A DNA stretch of 44,824 nucleotides. Source: a virus (Duplodnaviria; Heunggongvirae; Uroviricota; Caudoviricetes). The notes below the pieces were generated by a model. It saw only the letters and a list, made by a program, of their open reading frames with translations. It was not told the origin of the DNA and did no database searches. Position numbers and translations under genes: made by a program. Below, piece by piece: positions 4,109-12,556 of this stretch (positions are counted from its first letter, which is position 1; each line of letters opens with the position of its first letter). The DNA is taken from the IMG/VR virus record IMGVR_UViG_647533158_000002; one strand, 5' to 3'.

Positions 4109-4405
4109 TTATACCTCTGAATCAATATCAACCTGGTGGTGAGCAATGGTTTCAACCATGTACTGGATGTGTTCTGCCATGCGCTCCTGAAACTCAACAT
4201 CGTCATCAAACGCACGGGTAATGGCTTTTTTGCTGGCCCCGTGGCGTTGCAAATGATCGATGCATAGCGATTCAAACAGGTGCTGGGGCAGGCCTTTTTC
4301 CATGTCGTCTGCCAGTTCTGCCTCTTTCTCTTCACGGGCGATCTGCTGGTAGTGACGCGCCCAGCTCTGAGCCTCAAGACGATCCTGAATGTAATAAGCG
4401 TTCAT
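4109..4405 (-). CDS. gam: host RecBCD nuclease inhibitor Gam
   Basis: 98 aa; [44 protein letters not shown]... recognised as lambda Gam (short form); AGGAGG RBS upstream. Confidence 0.9.
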
Positions 4406-4480
4406 GGCTGACCTCCTGAAAATGGCTGTGAAAATATCGCCCGCGAAATGCCAGGCTGATTAGGAAAACAGGAAAGGGGA

Positions 4481-4858
4481 TTAGTGATTCAGGCCGTTAC
4501 CGCGTCCGTCGAGAAAAACTTCCACGAGCAAATCACGGGTATAAGTGCGCTCGATGCCGCGATGCAGATAAAGCCGTCCGCGTAAATTAGCTGATGCAGT
4601 CCAGGTACCATCTTTGTGTTTGACCAGCATTCCTGGCATGACCGCACCTCGATTAACGGTCTGCGTTCCATAATGTTGATGAACCATAAAAACTCCTGCC
4701 CGTAAGCTGGGCTGCTGAACATATAGAGACTTCTGCGCGTATTCAGGCGGTGGATGGCCGCCGGTTGTCATAACTAAGCCGCCTCGTTGAAGCGACTGAG
4801 GTATGAAGTGTTGAGTTGATTTCAGCTGGTCACACCGACGTTCACGCGTCCGCTTCAC
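4481..4858 (-). CDS. hypothetical protein in the N slot; possible N-like antiterminator (Arg-rich N-terminus)
   Basis: Only ORF between the putative pL/OL region and gam; from GTG at 4858 (GGAG 7 nt upstream) the N-terminus reads MKRTRERR..., resembling the lambda N arginine-rich motif; rest of protein not recognisable; start codon and function uncertain. Confidence 0.3.
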
Positions 4859-4959
4859 CCCTCGCACTCCCCGGAGCCTGCTGAAATTCAAGCTGCGGAT
4901 CTAAGCGGTCATCGCAACGGTGAATCAGGTGGTTGCCGTATCGTTGTGTTGTTGCGATG

Positions 4960-5060
4960 AATTTATTTAAAACTATAGTTGTTTTATCGTCAACAACAAA
5001 AGTTGTTTTATTGGTTGTTTTAGATGTAACTGGTTGTATTTAGGATGGGTTTATTTTGTG
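4960..5060 (-). promoter_or_regulatory. putative pL promoter with OL-like operator repeats
   Basis: Minus strand: -35 TTGACG (plus 4988-4993), 17-nt spacer, -10 TTAAAT (plus 4965-4970); overlapping repeats GTTGTT / AACAAC-aaaa-GTTGTT and TGGTTGTT that recur in the OR region. Confidence 0.4.
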
Positions 5061-5130
5061 ACTTGCATCGCATAGCGATAACTGAAGGGAGATTGTGGTG
5101 GTTTTTTGAACGGTATATGTGATGAGGGGA

Positions 5131-5163
5131 GGGGATAAAAGAAAACCCGGCACGGTGGCCGGG
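5131..5163 (-). terminator. rho-independent terminator closing the cI-kinase-phosphatase transcription unit
   Basis: Minus strand CCCGGCCACCGTGCCGGG hairpin followed by TTTTCTTTT, directly after the phosphatase stop. Confidence 0.6.
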
Positions 5164-5167
5164 AAGT

Positions 5168-5911
5168 TTACAAATACTTTACATTTACCGCTATAAGAGA
5201 ATAATCGTCAGTCGGGCCTTTTGTCTCTATTCTTCGCATTAGGCTGGAGGCAAACCTTGATGCGGTTGACAATGTACGGTAAGAAAATCGTGGGCGTTGC
5301 TCCCAAAAGGTATGCGCGCCATCAGACATGATGAATAGAGATAGAACACCATCGTCAAGAGGAAGTTCATCTTTATCAATATTTATGACTTGATGTTGAA
5401 GGGGGATCTTGGCAGCAAGTGCAGTTGTAATAATATTTTTACCTTTTGCATTTTTGAGCTGTCGAGCTGTATAAATACCGCTATCTATCAACATTTGATG
5501 TTGAGTATGATCTGTTGTTAATTGGATTAGCTTATTTCCATTTTTTAAATAAACACGACAGTCACCTACATGTATAATTGTTAGACCTTGATTGTGAAGT
5601 AGGCACATTGTTAAAGTTGTAGCAGCAGATGCTAATTCTTTATCAACTGACGAAAGAGATGCCACCTTTTCTTGTAGGGTCTTAAGTAAGGATAAGACAT
5701 TGTCTTCATGAGTGAAGCTGTCTTTAATACTATACAAATGATTTATTACTGCTGCAGATGCTTCTTTTCCTCCTTTATAACCACCAACCCCATCAGCTAT
5801 AGCCATAAGATAACCATTTGGTGTTTGAAGTGGATAAAGCACGCTATCTTGATTTTCCCTGCCATTATGTTTTGGTACAGAAAATATGGATGATGAGAGT
5901 ATGCTAATCAT
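5168..5911 (-). CDS. PP2C-family (PPM) Ser/Thr protein phosphatase
   Basis: 247 aa; PP2C motifs visible: AIADGVGG, HVGDCRVY, LIDSG, MSDGAH; ATG overlaps the kinase TGA stop (ATGA) indicating translational coupling; AT-rich codon usage. Confidence 0.8.
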   Translation of the reverse strand: MISILSSSIFSVPKHNGRENQDSVLYPLQTPNGYLMAIADGVGGYKGGKEASAAVINHLYSIKDSFTHEDNVLSLLKTLQEKVASLSSVDKELASAATTLTMCLLHNQGLTIIHVGDCRVYLKNGNKLIQLTTDHTQHQMLIDSGIYTARQLKNAKGKNIITTALAAKIPLQHQVINIDKDELPLDDGVLSLFIMSDGAHTFWEQRPRFSYRTLSTASRFASSLMRRIETKGPTDDYSLIAVNVKYL

Positions 5912-6633
5912 AAGCGTTTCAACTCCAATTCCTCAAAGATCTGCTCTACGGTCAGGAATCTTTTGTTAAGTTGTCTATGCGTACATTTGTTTATTATATC
6001 ATCAAAACCATCAATATTTAATTCTTCAATTAAAATACCAATTGAATATATATCTGATTGTTTTGAATATCCGTTGAGGAAAACGTTGTAATCAAAGTAT
6101 TTAGGAGTAGCGGGGTATTGGCCAATTTGTGTTAATAGCTGTGTATTGGCATCTGGTGACACATTTTTTGCAAGGCCGAAGTCAGATAACTTATAAATTC
6201 CATCTTTAAATTTTAGTACATTTAGTGGTTTTATATCCCGATGAAGATATCCTTTCTTATGAATCCATCCGACGGCATTTAGTACCATTTTTACAATAGA
6301 GATTTTTTCAGCCTTTGTAAGAGTTCCACTTTTTATTTCTTCTTCAAGATTTGTTTCTGCTAGTTCCATTACGAACCAAGGCTGAGCATTCTGTAAGTGG
6401 CATATGAATATTTGGACAATATTAGTATGCAGGCATTCAGTTTGATATCTTACTTCTCGTTCAAATCTGGTAAAGAGTTCAGGATCTGTTGCATCAGGTC
6501 GTAAAATTTTTCTGGCATATAGACCACAAATTTTTCTTTGTGAGTTATATAACCTTATTTTTTCTACAAGGCCAAAACCGCCAGAACCAATTACTTCTAG
6601 GGGTTCTATTAGGTAATTCCCACGTTCTTCCAT
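5908..6633 (-). CDS. Hanks-type (eukaryotic-like) Ser/Thr protein kinase
   Basis: 241 aa; Gly-rich loop IGSGGFGLV, catalytic loop HRDIKPLN, DFG motif (LSDFGLAK); AAGGA RBS 7 nt upstream of ATG at 6633; AT-rich relative to flanks. Confidence 0.85.
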   Translation of the reverse strand: MEERGNYLIEPLEVIGSGGFGLVEKIRLYNSQRKICGLYARKILRPDATDPELFTRFEREVRYQTECLHTNIVQIFICHLQNAQPWFVMELAETNLEEEIKSGTLTKAEKISIVKMVLNAVGWIHKKGYLHRDIKPLNVLKFKDGIYKLSDFGLAKNVSPDANTQLLTQIGQYPATPKYFDYNVFLNGYSKQSDIYSIGILIEELNIDGFDDIINKCTHRQLNKRFLTVEQIFEELELKRL

Positions 6634-6728
6634 TGTTCATCCTTTTAAGTTAGACAAAAGGAAAAATATAATGCAATGTTATCGATGCTTTTTTGAAGCC
6701 AAAGTTAACTTGTTGAATTTATGTCGAA

Positions 6729-7418
6729 TTATCCATGCTTCCTATACGTCTGCGGCATGCTCCCGATGACTTTCCCGAAGATGAATACCCGGTTCATCTC
6801 GTCTTTCTCGATTGGGTCCCACGGTGAGTAGCTCTTGTTATCAGAGATAACCAGCAGTTTATCCTTCATCATTTGCAGGCGCTTTACATGGGCTGTGTCG
6901 TCGTACAGAAACGCATAGATACCATCACCGTCGAAAGATTTAACCGTGATATCAACGAACAGCAGATCACCTGGTTCGATCGTTCCTGACATGCTGTCAC
7001 CGCGTACGTTAATGATACGGATATTTTCCGCCTTCCTGCCATCGAACATGTGACGAGCATCGTCAAACGAATACTCAACCGAACGTAGAACTTCTACAAA
7101 CTCACGGTTGATGACTCCCGGCCCGGCACTCACTTCGATATCAAGAACGTCAATCTTAAAGTATTTGGAATGGCTGACAGTTGTTTGTATTGGTTGCACT
7201 GTACTGTCTGACATATTTCCAACGCCAGAAGATAACCATTCTGCGCGCACACCCAAAGCGTTCGCGATCTCCACGATTTTAGTTGTTTGGTTAGCTTTCC
7301 CTGTTTCGATTTTCTGAATAGCTGCTTGGCTAACCCCGACCAAATCCCCAAGCGCCTTTTGTGTAAGGCCTCGCGCTAATCTGGCTTCTTTAAGTCTTTC
7401 TGAGAGTGTTGTTTTCAT
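6729..7418 (-). CDS. cI: CI-type prophage repressor (HTH_XRE N-domain + S24 LexA-like peptidase C-domain)
   Basis: HTH LTQKALGDLVGVSQAAIQKIE; Ala-Gly cleavage site (SAGPG); catalytic GDSM and VKRL motifs; start placed at ATG 7418 (MKTTLSE...) rather than upstream alternative start so that an operator region remains. Confidence 0.85.
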   Translation of the reverse strand: MKTTLSERLKEARLARGLTQKALGDLVGVSQAAIQKIETGKANQTTKIVEIANALGVRAEWLSSGVGNMSDSTVQPIQTTVSHSKYFKIDVLDIEVSAGPGVINREFVEVLRSVEYSFDDARHMFDGRKAENIRIINVRGDSMSGTIEPGDLLFVDITVKSFDGDGIYAFLYDDTAHVKRLQMMKDKLLVISDNKSYSPWDPIEKDEMNRVFIFGKVIGSMPQTYRKHG

Positions 7419-10442: not shown

Positions 10443-10775
10443 ATGAACCCTTATATTTATCTTGGTGGTGCAATACTTGCAGAGGTCATTGGTACAACCT
10501 TAATGAAGTTTTCAGAAGGTTTTACACGGTTATGGCCATCTGTTGGTACAATTATTTGTTATTGTGCATCATTCTGGTTATTAGCTCAGACGCTGGCTTA
10601 TATTCCTACAGGGATTGCTTATGCTATCTGGTCAGGAGTCGGTATTGTCCTGATTAGCTTACTGTCATGGGGATTTTTCGGCCAACGGCTGGACCTGCCA
10701 GCCATTATAGGCATGATGTTGATTTGTGCCGGTGTGTTGGTTATTAATTTATTGTCACGAAGCACACCACATTAA
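10443..10775 (+). CDS. emrE: small multidrug resistance efflux transporter EmrE
   Basis: 110 aa from ATG 10443; MNPYIYLGGAILAEVIGTTLMKFSEGFTRLWPSVGTIICYCASFWLLAQ... recognised as EmrE; four hydrophobic helices. Confidence 0.9.
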   Translation: MNPYIYLGGAILAEVIGTTLMKFSEGFTRLWPSVGTIICYCASFWLLAQTLAYIPTGIAYAIWSGVGIVLISLLSWGFFGQRLDLPAIIGMMLICAGVLVINLLSRSTPH

Positions 10776-11029: not shown

Positions 11030-12556
11030 ATGAAAAAAGCCATAGCATATATGCGATTTTCATCACCAGGTCAGATGTCTGGCGACTCATTAAACCGACA
11101 GAGAAGACTTATTGCTGAATGGTTAAAGGTAAATAGTGATTATTATCTTGATACCATAACATATGAAGATTTAGGATTAAGTGCATTCAAAGGAAAGCAT
11201 GCACAATCAGGAGCTTTTTCGGAATTTTTAGATGCTATAGAGCATGGTTATATATTGCCAGGAACTACATTGTTAGTTGAAAGTCTGGACAGACTTTCAA
11301 GAGAAAAAGTCGGTGAAGCGATTGAACGTCTGAAATTGATTTTGAATCACGGTATTGATGTTATAACTCTTTGCGACAATACAGTCTATAATATTGACTC
11401 TTTGAATGAGCCATATTCATTAATAAAAGCCATACTTATAGCACAAAGGGCAAATGAAGAAAGCGAGATAAAGTCAAGTCGGGTTAAATTATCATGGAAG
11501 AAAAAACGGCAGGATGCACTGGAATCAGGTACGATTATGACGGCGTCTTGTCCGAGATGGCTCTCCTTAGATGACAAAAGAACGGCTTTTGTTCCAGACC
11601 CCGACAGGGTGAAAACTATTGAGCTAATTTTTAAACTCAGGATGGAAAGGCGCTCATTGAATGCAATAGCCAAGTATTTAAATGATCATGCTGTAAAGAA
11701 TTTCTCAGGAAAAGAAAGTGCATGGGGACCTTCTGTAATTGAAAAATTATTAGCGAATAAAGCTCTGATAGGTATATGCGTACCTTCATATCGTGCAAGA
11801 GGGAAAGGGATAAGTGAAATCGCTGGCTATTATCCCAGAGTCATATCAGATGATTTGTTTTACGCTGTACAGGAAATTCGGTTGGCACCTTTTGGTATTA
11901 GCAATAGTAGCAAGAATCCTATGCTAATAAATCTACTTCGAACAGTTATGAAGTGTGAGGCTTGTGGTAATACCATGATTGTTCATGCGGTATCTGGAAG
12001 TTTGCATGGCTATTATGTTTGTCCGATGAGAAGATTACATCGATGTGACAGGCCATCAATAAAAAGAGATTTGGTTGATTATAATATCATTAATGAATTG
12101 CTTTTTAATTGTAGCAAAATTCAACCAGTTGAAAACAAGAAAGATGCTAATGAAACTTTAGAGTTAAAAATTATTGAGCTTCAGATGAAAATTAATAATT
12201 TAATCGTTGCATTGTCTGTCGCGCCTGAAGTTACCGCTATAGCAGAGAAAATAAGACTATTAGATAAGGAATTACGAAGGGCTTCGGTATCATTGAAAAC
12301 TTTGAAGAGTAAAGGTGTAAATTCATTCAGTGATTTTTATGCTATTGACTTAACCAGTAAAAATGGACGAGAGTTATGCCGTACACTTGCCTATAAAACA
12401 TTCGAAAAAATCATAATTAATACGGATAATAAAACCTGTGATATCTATTTTATGAATGGCATTGTTTTTAAACACTATCCTTTAATGAAAGTAATATCCG
12501 CCCAGCAGGCGATAAGTGCTCTCAAATATATGGTTGATGGTGAGATTTATTTCTAA
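11030..12556 (+). CDS. ybcK: large serine recombinase (DLP12 YbcK-like)
   Basis: 508 aa; N-terminal resolvase-type domain (AIAYMRFSSPGQ... with active-site Ser region), C-terminal Cys cluster (CEACGN...C...C); AT-rich. Confidence 0.85.
   Translation: MKKAIAYMRFSSPGQMSGDSLNRQRRLIAEWLKVNSDYYLDTITYEDLGLSAFKGKHAQSGAFSEFLDAIEHGYILPGTTLLVESLDRLSREKVGEAIERLKLILNHGIDVITLCDNTVYNIDSLNEPYSLIKAILIAQRANEESEIKSSRVKLSWKKKRQDALESGTIMTASCPRWLSLDDKRTAFVPDPDRVKTIELIFKLRMERRSLNAIAKYLNDHAVKNFSGKESAWGPSVIEKLLANKALIGICVPSYRARGKGISEIAGYYPRVISDDLFYAVQEIRLAPFGISNSSKNPMLINLLRTVMKCEACGNTMIVHAVSGSLHGYYVCPMRRLHRCDRPSIKRDLVDYNIINELLFNCSKIQPVENKKDANETLELKIIELQMKINNLIVALSVAPEVTAIAEKIRLLDKELRRASVSLKTLKSKGVNSFSDFYAIDLTSKNGRELCRTLAYKTFEKIIINTDNKTCDIYFMNGIVFKHYPLMKVISAQQAISALKYMVDGEIYF

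What the first reader, a model, noticed from the sequence alone, without database searches (positions are those of the whole stretch)
5168..6633. Eukaryotic-like Ser/Thr kinase + PP2C phosphatase operon occupying the rexAB slot downstream of cI
Directly downstream of the cI repressor on the same strand, where lambda carries rexA-rexB, sit a 241-aa Hanks-type kinase (GSGGFG loop, HRDIKPLN, DFG) and a 247-aa PP2C phosphatase (ADGVGG, GDCR, DSG, SDG). They are translationally coupled (ATGA overlap) and closed by a terminator at 5131-5163. The block is visibly AT-rich versus the lambda-like flanks, suggesting a horizontally acquired moron. Being co-transcribed with cI, it would be expressed in the lysogen, which is the classic layout of prophage superinfection-exclusion genes. 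A kinase with a cognate phosphatase suggests a held-in-check toxic kinase released on infection (abortive infection). From memory, a prophage kinase Stk of phage 933W in a comparable position has been reported to exclude HK97; a coupled PP2C partner would extend that idea, but I cannot verify homology here.
Basis: partly seen in the sequence, partly recalled or inferred. Interest (0 to 1): 0.9.

Follow-up and report, generated by a model that had tools for sequence, protein, structure and literature searches.

The report
Prophage kinase–phosphatase pair beside cI
A lambda-like E. coli prophage carries, in the cargo slot just after its repressor gene, an overlapping two-gene pair encoding a small Ser/Thr kinase and a PP2C phosphatase, which is probably an untested relative of known kinase-based anti-phage systems.

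Summary
ORF 5908-6633(-) is a complete 241-aa Hanks-type kinase and ORF 5168-5911(-) a complete 247-aa PP2C phosphatase. Both have intact catalytic residues and confident fold models. They overlap by ATGA, lie between cI and a terminator, and have 33-39% GC against about 50% in the flanks.

The pair is a fixed two-gene cassette. In all 52 related loci the PP2C directly follows the kinase, nearly always overlapping it, and the two proteins co-diverge (r=0.87). The cassette moves between prophage cargo slots: after cI, after Q, between lysis genes and terminase, between head and tail genes, and in P4-like elements.

In this lineage the cI-to-pL slot (cargo 5165-6728) is hypervariable. Sister prophages hold HipA-kinase/DUF3037 and GevT/GevA toxin-antitoxin pairs, SIR2, DUF4411, or nothing. 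The terminator belongs to the shared backbone.

Most likely (about 0.5) this is a lysogen-expressed toxin/antidote-type exclusion module, like the published kinase-kinase-phosphatase system KKP or 933W Stk. It fails KKP's defining architecture and is only 26% identical to Stk. Function is untested. RefSeq already names both genes generically.

I rate it a new variant of a known kind, of moderate interest.

The parts
5908..6633 (-). Kinase gene: 241-aa bare Hanks-type Ser/Thr kinase catalytic domain with no accessory domain.
   Evidence: ORF. Pfam Pkinase 2.5e-32. Family-invariant G18, G21, K42, E60, H131-R132-D133, K135, N138, D151-F152-G153, T168, D194, R225. AlphaFold2 model pLDDT 87, pTM 0.86, with only the activation loop 155-171 at low confidence. 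Foldseek matches to PknB and FGFR2 kinase domains, TM-score 0.75-0.82.
5168..5911 (-). Phosphatase gene: 247-aa PP2C/PPM Ser/Thr phosphatase.
   Evidence: ORF. Pfam PP2C_2 4.8e-12 and PP2C 1.1e-7. PDB sequence matches to PstP at 1.8e-13, and to tPphA over the full length at 5e-12. Invariant D22, D40-G41, G43, G116-D117, R119, D134, D197-G198, D235-D236. AlphaFold2 model pLDDT 91. Foldseek matches to PstP, Stp1 and tPphA, TM-score 0.72-0.82.
5908..5911 (-). ATGA overlap of the kinase stop codon and the PP2C start codon, suggesting translational coupling.
   Evidence: Sequence ...CGC TTA TGA TTA GC.... An overlap is conserved in 23 of 24 non-redundant family loci: 4 nt in 17, and 1, 8 or 17 nt in 6 more.
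6634..6728 (-). 95-nt spacer between cI and the kinase, belonging to the cargo, with a Shine-Dalgarno AAGGA at 6640-6644.
   Evidence: Sequence. No terminator-like or consensus promoter-like site on the minus strand here. Homology with sister prophages resumes only at 6729/6730.
5165..6728 (-). The whole variable cargo cassette: spacer, kinase and PP2C.
   Evidence: Breakpoints against an empty-slot prophage (L167) and the GevTA and HipA/D prophages (L165, L166): homology covers 4400-5164 and 6729/30-7800 at 96-98%. GC 0.36 against 0.49 in the flanks.
5136..5163 (-). Intrinsic terminator closing the cI operon. It is a backbone feature shared by all cargo types.
   Evidence: Stem of 6 G-C pairs, 6-nt loop, then TTTTCTTTTA. 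It lies inside the conserved flank, which ends at 5164.
6729..7418 (-). cI-type repressor (HTH + S24 autopeptidase), the first gene of the presumed operon.
   Evidence: Pfam Peptidase_S24 1.5e-18 and HTH_3 6.5e-13. RefSeq annotates a 229-aa S24 family peptidase at the equivalent position.
4965..5011 (-). Candidate OL/pL region just downstream of the terminator.
   Evidence: Two 17-nt operator-like repeats, AACTATAGTTGTTTTAT and AACAAAAGTTGTTTTAT, spaced 24 nt apart. TTGACG-17 nt-TTAAAT read by eye. This is inference; the consensus scan did not report it.

Best explanation
The block is a mobile two-gene 'kinase-then-PP2C' cassette (K-P module) carried as a moron in the cargo slot between cI and the immunity-operon terminator of a lambdoid E. 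coli prophage integrated next to icd.

Shown here:
- Both proteins are catalytically intact.
- They are always inherited together.
- Their genes overlap, consistent with translational coupling.
- The slot in sister prophages holds toxin-antitoxin or defence cargo.

Inferred mechanism:
1. The pair is transcribed with cI from pRM in the lysogen.
2. The kinase autophosphorylates its activation loop, where T168 is invariant. If unchecked, it would phosphorylate essential host or phage proteins.
3. The co-translated PP2C continuously reverses this, acting as an enzymatic (type VII-like) antidote.
4. A superinfecting phage tips the balance, either by inhibiting or outlasting the phosphatase or by stimulating the kinase.
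5. The resulting hyperphosphorylation arrests the cell or the infection, giving exclusion or abortive infection that protects the lysogen population.
For: Enzyme identity and integrity.

Obligate pairing:
- The PP2C lies directly downstream of the kinase in 52 of 52 family loci.
- The genes overlap in 23 of 24 non-redundant loci.
- Pairwise identities of kinase and PP2C correlate, r=0.87.

Moron behaviour:
- Cassette GC is below flank GC in 24 of 24 loci.
- The cassette is present in only 15 of 5426 complete E. coli genomes, while the flanks are common.
- It occupies at least six different prophage or satellite slots.

Slot logic:
- The cargo sits between the cI stop codon and a backbone terminator, with no intervening terminator.
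- The same slot elsewhere holds HipA_2 kinase + DUF3037, GevT + an ASCH-domain protein, SIR2, or DUF4411 + ImmA. The first two pairs are deposited as toxin-first toxin-antitoxin pairs.

Precedents:
- KKP is a prophage kinase/PP2C toxin-antitoxin system that defends when a phage protein inhibits the phosphatase (PMC11341870).
- 933W Stk lies in the same slot and is cited as an HK97-activated exclusion kinase.
- The kinase matches the defence-kinase models of the PADLOC defence-system library: mad6 3e-39, PD-T4-6 1e-34, Stk2 2e-27.
- Relatives at 57% identity lie beside P4-like primase (DUF927) genes, the kind of element reported as a defence hotspot (PMC9122126, listed).
Against: - There are no functional data of any kind: no expression, toxicity or plating results.
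- The PADLOC matches cover only the generic kinase domain.
- NCBIfam scores fall far below every curated cutoff, for example MAD6 at 66.8 bits against 460.
- The kinase has no sensor domain, so how infection would be sensed is unknown.
- Most relatives sit in late-operon positions: after Q, between Rz and terS, or between head and tail genes. A simple scan found no consensus promoter ahead of them, so in those phages the pair may be made during lytic growth rather than in lysogens.
- No promoter was detected for the cassette itself. Co-transcription with cI is therefore inferred only from the absence of a terminator.
Confidence: 0.5

Rival explanations
1. A lysogeny or host-physiology regulator rather than a defence. 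The kinase/phosphatase balance tunes phosphorylation of a host nucleoid protein, a transcription factor or the repressor circuit, setting the induction threshold of this or co-resident prophages. KKP does this through MvaU.
For: KKP controls prophage production through the kinase/phosphatase balance. The location inside the immunity operon couples dosage to cI. A reversible enzyme pair suits regulation.
Against: The same cassette works from at least six unrelated slots and in hosts ranging from Escherichia to Pseudomonas and Acinetobacter. That argues against a partner-specific regulatory role tied to one immunity region. Neighbouring cargo alternatives are toxin-antitoxin or defence types.
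Confidence: 0.18
2. A phage-benefit weapon used in lytic growth. The kinase phosphorylates host proteins to take over the cell or disarm host defences, as reported for the T7 kinase. The PP2C limits the damage, resets the state or protects phage proteins.
For: Many relatives lie in late transcription units: downstream of Q and tR' in phiES15, between Rz and terS in Flotzy, and between head and tail genes. A 2026 paper reports that pervasive phosphorylation by the T7 kinase disarms defences (PMC13645617, listed; abstract only read).
Against: In this window the pair is on the repressor transcript, behind cI and before the immunity terminator. That position is silent-phase expression, not lytic. 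Carrying an obligate opposing phosphatase is odd for a pure weapon. Flotzy has a strong terminator immediately after the PP2C, which is moron-like.
Confidence: 0.14
3. A pure addiction (post-segregational killing) module that stabilises the prophage or satellite against loss and has no role against other phages.
For: Toxin-first, antidote-second coupled architecture, as in the neighbouring HipA/DUF3037 and GevT/GevA cargo. The cassette is always inherited as a pair.
Against: Addiction requires a labile antidote, and nothing here indicates that. Many prophage toxin-antitoxin modules turn out to be defensive. The position in several defence-type slots favours defence.
Confidence: 0.1
4. A selectively inert or decaying passenger with no current function.
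For: It is rare: 15 of 5426 complete E. coli genomes. Some truncated or interrupted kinase copies exist: P0005 and P0007 at 200-202 aa, and L105 with the kinase cut at about residue 186.
Against: All catalytic residues of both enzymes are invariant across homologues down to 32-45% identity. The gene overlap is conserved. The 15 E. coli copies are 99.6-100% identical and annotated intact.
Confidence: 0.03

Closest known systems
KKP (PfkA/PfkB/PfpC) kinase-kinase-phosphatase module of Pf6, P2, P4 and Mu-like prophages (Guo et al. 2024, PMC11341870)
   Same: Prophage-borne Hanks-type Ser/Thr kinase(s) plus a PP2C (PF13672) phosphatase in one operon. [quoted passage not shown]
Stk of Shiga-toxin phage 933W
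   Same: A eukaryotic-like kinase in the same slot: downstream of cI on the pRM transcript, before the tM terminator and pL/N. It is cited as being activated by HK97 infection and causing exclusion (PMC3681748).
   Different: Only 25.7% identity over residues 21-236, E=3e-7. Stk is 348 aa, is described as a tyrosine kinase, is preceded by two other ORFs, and has no PP2C partner.
Single-gene defence kinases PD-T4-6 (E. coli) and Stk2 (Staphylococcus), and MAD6 of the MADS system, as modelled in the PADLOC defence-system library
   Same: The kinase domain matches their models: mad6 3.1e-39, PD-T4-6 1.4e-34, Stk2 1.7e-27.
   Different: The matches cover only the catalytic domain, for example profile positions 53-249 of 659 and 129-352 of 500. 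Those proteins are longer and have no PP2C. The NCBIfam MAD6 score is 66.8 against a cutoff of 460.
Housekeeping PknB/PstP and Stk1/Stp1 pairs of Gram-positive bacteria
   Same: These are the closest solved structures for both proteins. They are a cognate kinase/PP2C pair in which the phosphatase dephosphorylates the kinase activation loop (established knowledge).
   Different: Those operons run phosphatase then kinase (seen in loci L033-L076). Their kinases carry transmembrane and PASTA sensor domains, and they are core chromosomal genes rather than mobile AT-rich morons.
Lambda rexA-rexB
   Same: Same genomic position and presumed expression logic: the cI operon, expressed in lysogens, giving exclusion of other phages (established knowledge of lambda).
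   Different: There is no sequence or fold relationship; the proteins here are enzymes.

Membership tests
Hanks-type (eukaryotic-like) protein kinase superfamily | Pfam Pkinase match above the gathering score | tested here: met
   112.8 bits against 31.7, E=2.5e-32.
Hanks-type (eukaryotic-like) protein kinase superfamily | Catalytic signature: Gly-rich loop, VAIK Lys, alpha-C Glu, HRDxKxxN, DFG | tested here: met
   G16-x-G18-x-x-G21, K42, E60, H131-R132-D133-I-K135-x-x-N138 and D151-F152-G153 are all invariant in 29 family members. The K in HRDxK points to Ser/Thr specificity (established knowledge).
Hanks-type (eukaryotic-like) protein kinase superfamily | Bilobal kinase fold over the whole domain | tested here: met
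   AlphaFold2 model pLDDT 87, pTM 0.86. Foldseek matches to PknB and FGFR2, TM-score 0.75-0.82, E about 1e-14.
Hanks-type (eukaryotic-like) protein kinase superfamily | Phosphotransfer activity | not testable with these tools
   Needs an in vitro kinase assay or phosphoproteomics.
PP2C / PPM phosphatases | Pfam PP2C or PP2C_2 match above the gathering score | tested here: met
   PF13672 46.3 against 24; PF00481 32.2 against 20.3.
PP2C / PPM phosphatases | Metal-binding Asp residues of motifs 1, 2, 8 and 11, plus the GD(C/S)R motif | tested here: met
   D22, D40-G41, D197-G198, D235-D236 and G116-D117-x-R119 are invariant in two independent alignments. The protein aligns over its full length to tPphA and PstP.
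PP2C / PPM phosphatases | PPM fold | tested here: met
   pLDDT 91. Matches to PstP, Stp1 and tPphA at TM-score 0.72-0.82.
KKP module (Guo et al. 2024) | Gene triplet: PP2C phosphatase followed by two kinases | tested here: not met
   There is one kinase, placed upstream of the PP2C. The flanking genes are cI and kil.
KKP module (Guo et al. 2024) | Kinases fused to a cold-shock domain (PfkA) and an FHA domain (PfkB) | tested here: not met
   Only kinase-domain families match significantly: Pkinase and PK_Tyr_Ser-Thr, plus one sub-threshold unrelated hit. There is no PF00313 or PF00498 match, and at 241 aa there is no room for an extra domain.
KKP module (Guo et al. 2024) | Prophage location | tested here: met
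   Lambdoid prophage next to icd. Relatives are in viral contigs.
KKP module (Guo et al. 2024) | Kinase toxicity neutralised by phosphatase activity; defence triggered by phage inhibition of the phosphatase | not testable with these tools
   Requires expression and plating experiments.
933W Stk family | Orthology to 933W Stk (close sequence similarity, similar length) | tested here: not met
   25.7% identity, E=3e-7, covering the kinase core only. Stk is 348 aa against 241 aa here.
933W Stk family | Location between cI and the immunity terminator | tested here: met
PD-T4-6 / Stk2 / MAD6 defence kinases | Full-length match to the system's model and the system's gene content | tested here: not met
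   PADLOC matches are restricted to the kinase-domain portion of longer profiles. NCBIfam MAD6 scores 66.8 against 460. No MADS methyltransferase or partner genes lie nearby.
Moron (extra transcription unit in a lambdoid backbone) | Present in some and absent from other otherwise near-identical phages, at a fixed backbone junction | tested here: met
   Empty-slot and alternative-cargo relatives have 96-98% identical flanks and sharp breakpoints at 5164 and 6729.
Moron (extra transcription unit in a lambdoid backbone) | Deviant base composition | tested here: met
   GC 0.36 against 0.49 here, and lower than the flanks in 24 of 24 loci.
Moron (extra transcription unit in a lambdoid backbone) | Own promoter and terminator | tested here: inconclusive
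   No consensus promoter lies upstream of the kinase, and the terminator is backbone-encoded here. Flotzy has a terminator 5 nt after the PP2C, while L118 has none.
Toxin-antitoxin system (enzymatic antitoxin, type VII-like) | Toxin activity reversed by the partner's enzymatic activity | not testable with these tools
   Only the architecture is consistent with this: coupled pair, co-divergence r=0.87.

The most novel reading that the evidence does not exclude
The K-P pair may be a dual-use phosphorylation device. From late-operon slots it would act during lytic growth as a broad host-takeover or counter-defence kinase, like the T7 kinase, with a built-in phosphatase for timing and self-protection. 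In the cI slot of this prophage the same cassette would be repurposed to run in the lysogen as an exclusion system. One minimal enzyme pair would then serve both offence and defence, depending only on where it is inserted.
Probability: 0.12. Interest if true: 0.75.

Novelty: new variant of a known kind. Interest (0 to 1): 0.5.

Why it matters
If the pair behaves as predicted, it would be the smallest phosphorylation-based toxin/antidote defence known: two bare catalytic domains with no sensor domain. It is widespread in prophages and satellites of Enterobacterales, and is also found in Pseudomonas, Xanthomonas and Acinetobacter.

It would show that the kinase/PP2C logic of KKP does not need two kinases or FHA and cold-shock domains. 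It would also raise a direct question: how can a domain-less kinase/phosphatase pair sense infection?

It adds a further cargo type to the cI-to-pL hotspot of a very common E. coli prophage lineage. Sister phages that differ only in slot content already exist, which makes isogenic comparisons easy.

Tried and rejected
- I suspected the two ORFs were a frameshift-split version of a fused kinase-phosphatase, because PHROG profiles 2361 and 5650 are long (415 and 565 positions) and the PP2C matched positions 276-519. Rejected: 52 of 52 loci have two separate overlapping ORFs, and 933W Stk is 348 aa with no PP2C.
- The genome-contig scan with the kinase alignment was swamped by generic kinases. 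Only L005 (Pseudomonas koreensis) belonged to the family. The viral-contig scan was the informative one.
- I compared the pair with the 'HipA/HipD' cargo of sister phage PhiR5_1 to test for hidden homology. There is none (E=0.4 and 0.28). That cargo is HipA_2 + DUF3037.
- Literature searches for the depositors' names (GevT/GevA, PhiR phages) and for PDC-M21/mad6 found no paper describing this slot or a two-gene kinase-PP2C system. The library is incomplete, so this is not proof of absence.
- Promoter scans did not exceed shuffled expectation anywhere, so they give no evidence for or against independent transcription.
I repeated it with database homologues.
- NCBIfam gave no specific family for either protein.
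Full report
**1. What is in the sequence**

On the minus strand, ORF 5908-6633 encodes 241 aa and ORF 5168-5911 encodes 247 aa.

The first is a protein kinase: Pfam Pkinase E=2.5e-32, 112.8 bits against a cutoff of 31.7. The second is a PP2C phosphatase: PP2C_2 E=4.8e-12 and PP2C E=1.1e-7, both above their cutoffs.

The kinase stop codon and the PP2C start codon overlap as ATGA at 5908-5911. An AAGGA Shine-Dalgarno sits 6 nt before the kinase ATG. A clean intrinsic terminator follows the PP2C stop: a 6 G-C-pair stem at 5146-5163, then TTTTCTTTT. GC is 0.33-0.39 across the block against about 0.50 on both sides.

Directly upstream on the same strand is a cI-type repressor (HTH_3 + Peptidase_S24), annotated in RefSeq as 6729-7418 in window coordinates. 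No terminator-like site lies between cI and the kinase.

Just beyond the terminator lie two 17-nt operator-like repeats and a pL-like TTGACG-17-TTAAAT, followed by kil, gam, bet and exo.

**2. Where the window comes from**

The region is 100% identical to a lambdoid prophage integrated next to icd in E. coli SCU-113. The prophage runs from int/xis through exo/bet/gam/kil, the cassette, cI, cro and a YdaT-like cII analogue to O/P, Q, the lysis genes and terminase.

RefSeq's annotation pipeline (PGAP) already names the two genes 'serine/threonine-protein kinase' (WP_000392636.1) and 'PP2C family protein-serine/threonine phosphatase' (WP_000623547.1). The cassette occurs in 15 of 5426 complete E. 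coli genomes, always on the chromosome, at 99.6-100% identity.

**3. Are the enzymes intact?**

*Kinase.* Its close relatives form a distinct clade of 241-282-aa proteins (most 241-265 aa). In the database search they score from 542 down to 150 bits, and the scores then drop sharply to generic kinases at 116 bits or less.

In an alignment of 29 members reaching down to 40% identity, every catalytic residue is invariant: G18 and G21 of the Gly loop, K42, E60, H131-R132-D133, K135, N138, D151-F152-G153, D194 and R225. An activation-loop threonine, T168, is also invariant.

An AlphaFold2 model is confident (pLDDT 87, pTM 0.86). Only the activation loop (155-171) is at low confidence. The model superposes on whole kinase domains such as PknB and FGFR2 at TM-score 0.75-0.82. 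It is a complete but bare catalytic domain with no sensor or interaction domain.

*PP2C.* It aligns over its full length to tPphA, and strongly to PstP. Two independent family alignments keep D22, D40-G41, G116-D117-x-R119, D134, D197-G198 and D235-D236 invariant. These are the metal-binding residues of PPM phosphatases (established knowledge of PstP and tPphA).

The model has pLDDT 91 and matches PstP, Stp1 and tPphA at TM-score 0.72-0.82. The family also conserves a motif outside the canonical set (W203, R206-P207-R208-F209, T213, R227). Its role is unknown.

**4. The pair is a unit**

I collected 52 loci encoding kinases of this clade: 49 viral contigs, phages Flotzy and phiES15, and one Pseudomonas genome.

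- All 52 have the PP2C immediately downstream on the same strand.
- Among 24 non-redundant loci, the genes overlap by 4 nt in 17, and by 1, 8 or 17 nt in 6 more.
- Pairwise identities of the two proteins correlate strongly: Pearson r=0.87 over 276 pairs.

The order, kinase then phosphatase, is the reverse of the housekeeping Stp-Stk operons picked up in Firmicutes genomes.

**5. It is a mobile moron**

The cassette has lower GC than its flanks in 24 of 24 loci. It occupies many different slots:

| Slot | Loci |
|---|---|
| Downstream of a cI-type repressor | window, L088-L090 |
| Downstream of antiterminator Q, the Stx-like position | phiES15, L098, L113, L115 |
| Between the Rz spanin and small terminase | Flotzy, L111, L114 and others |
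| Between head-closure and tail-completion genes | L118-L125 |
| Beside P4-like primase (DUF927) genes | L093, L094 |
| Next to an integrase | L129 |
| Next to tail-fibre assembly genes | L096 |

Among deposited phage genomes, only Flotzy and phiES15 carry it.

**6. The slot**

I compared the window with sister prophages. Backbone homology (96-98%) ends at 5164 and resumes at 6729/6730, which is the cI stop codon. The cargo is therefore 5165-6728.

The terminator belongs to the backbone: whatever is inserted lands between cI and the operon terminator. This is the strongest sequence-level argument that the cargo is meant to ride on the cI transcript.

In other E. coli genomes the same slot holds one of the following:
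- nothing;
- GevT + an ASCH-domain 'GevA';
- a HipA_2 kinase + DUF3037 (deposited as 'HipA toxin / HipD antitoxin');
- DUF7946;
- DUF6932;
- a BamE-like lipoprotein;
- DUF4411 + ImmA/IrrE;
- a SIR2 protein.

Several of these are toxin-antitoxin or defence-type genes. Two are deposited as toxin-first, antitoxin-second pairs, the same polarity as here. The slot corresponds to lambda rexAB and to the 933W stk region, which runs cI, two ORFs, stk, the tM terminator, nutL and N.

**7. Best explanation and its status**

Shown by the sequence analysis:
- an intact kinase and an intact PP2C;
- obligate pairing with overlapping genes;
- horizontally mobile, AT-rich cargo;
- placement in a toxin-antitoxin/defence hotspot on the repressor operon.

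Inferred:
1. The pair is expressed in the lysogen.
2. The kinase is potentially harmful through autophosphorylation and broad substrate phosphorylation.
3. The PP2C holds it in check enzymatically.
4. A superinfecting phage shifts the balance, leading to exclusion or abortive infection.

The inference rests on two precedents and on profile matches. KKP is a prophage kinase/PP2C system shown to be a toxin-antitoxin and to defend when a phage replication protein inhibits the phosphatase (PMC11341870). 933W Stk is cited as activated by HK97 and as causing exclusion. The kinase also matches defence-kinase profiles in the PADLOC defence-system library.

I put this at about 0.5. Weighing against it:
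- There is no experiment.
- The profile matches are to the generic kinase domain only.
- There is no sensor domain.
- In most relatives the cassette sits in late operons with no detectable promoter of its own. This leaves room for a lytic-phase role, such as T7-kinase-like counter-defence (PMC13645617), or for a regulatory role like that of KKP.

**8. Comparison with known systems**

- **KKP.** It works like KKP on paper, but it fails KKP's definition. [quoted passage not shown] Here there is a single domain-less kinase placed upstream of the phosphatase.
- **933W Stk.** It is not an orthologue: 25.7% identity, 241 aa against 348 aa, and Stk has no PP2C partner.
- **PD-T4-6, Stk2 and MAD6.** It is not a member of these either: the matches are partial, the scores are below the cutoff, and the partner genes are missing.
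- **Literature.** I found no paper on a two-gene lambdoid kinase-PP2C module in the held library. That library is incomplete.

**9. Verdict**

This is a real, well-defined feature. Its identity is certain and its function is plausible but untested. I classify it as a new variant of a known kind: prophage kinase/phosphatase toxin-antidote or exclusion modules.

Interest is moderate (0.5). A specialist would not be surprised, but it is a compact, widespread and easily testable candidate, and natural isogenic controls exist in the form of sister prophages with empty or different slots.

Noticed in passing
window 10443-10775 (+): An EmrE-type SMR multidrug efflux gene lies inside the prophage, downstream of the ren-like gene. 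It matches NCBIfam NF042984 at 239.9 bits against a cutoff of 226. It sits at the start of a second AT-rich stretch with GC 0.31-0.40.
   Followed up: partly
window 11030-12556 (+): A 508-aa large serine recombinase-like ORF lies in the same AT-rich stretch. Its only match is a weak one to XisF, 1.9e-12 and well below the cutoff. It may mark a second inserted element within the prophage.
   Followed up: no
window 5907-5936 (-): A weak promoter-like site, TTGAGG-18-TATGAT (9 of 12 matches), lies at the 3' end of the kinase gene just before the PP2C start. It could in principle give a PP2C-only transcript, as pLIT does for rexB in lambda, but the number of such sites in the region is no higher than in shuffled sequence.
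   Followed up: no
window 5165-6728 slot; L165, L166, L167 and hits H115-H155: The cI-to-pL slot of this common E. coli prophage lineage is hypervariable. Contents include nothing, GevT/ASCH, HipA_2 kinase + DUF3037, DUF7946, DUF6932, a BamE-like lipoprotein, DUF4411 + ImmA and SIR2. All have the same breakpoints and share the terminator.
   Followed up: partly
window PP2C residues 200-230 (about 5222-5314): The PP2C family has a conserved motif outside the canonical PPM motifs: W203, R206-P207-R208-F209, T213 and R227. It is invariant or nearly so in 25-27 homologues. It might be a kinase-docking or regulatory surface.
   Followed up: no
L105 1-2534; proteins P0005, P0007, P0123: Some copies have a damaged kinase but a retained PP2C. 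In L105 the kinase is cut at about residue 186 and two ORFs are inserted before the PP2C. Truncated E. coli kinases of 200-202 aa also exist. This is anecdotal, but it is the asymmetry expected if the kinase is the harmful partner.
   Followed up: no
window 4688-4964: No N-like antiterminator ORF is evident between the pL-like region and kil. This prophage lineage may not use an N-type early antiterminator at this position.
   Followed up: no
L093 and L094 (Klebsiella-type relatives, 57% identity): Here the K-P cassette lies near P4-like primase/helicase genes (Zn_Ribbon_Prim + Toprim_3 + DUF927) and a T5orf172 protein, that is, in satellite-like elements rather than lambdoid phages.
   Followed up: partly
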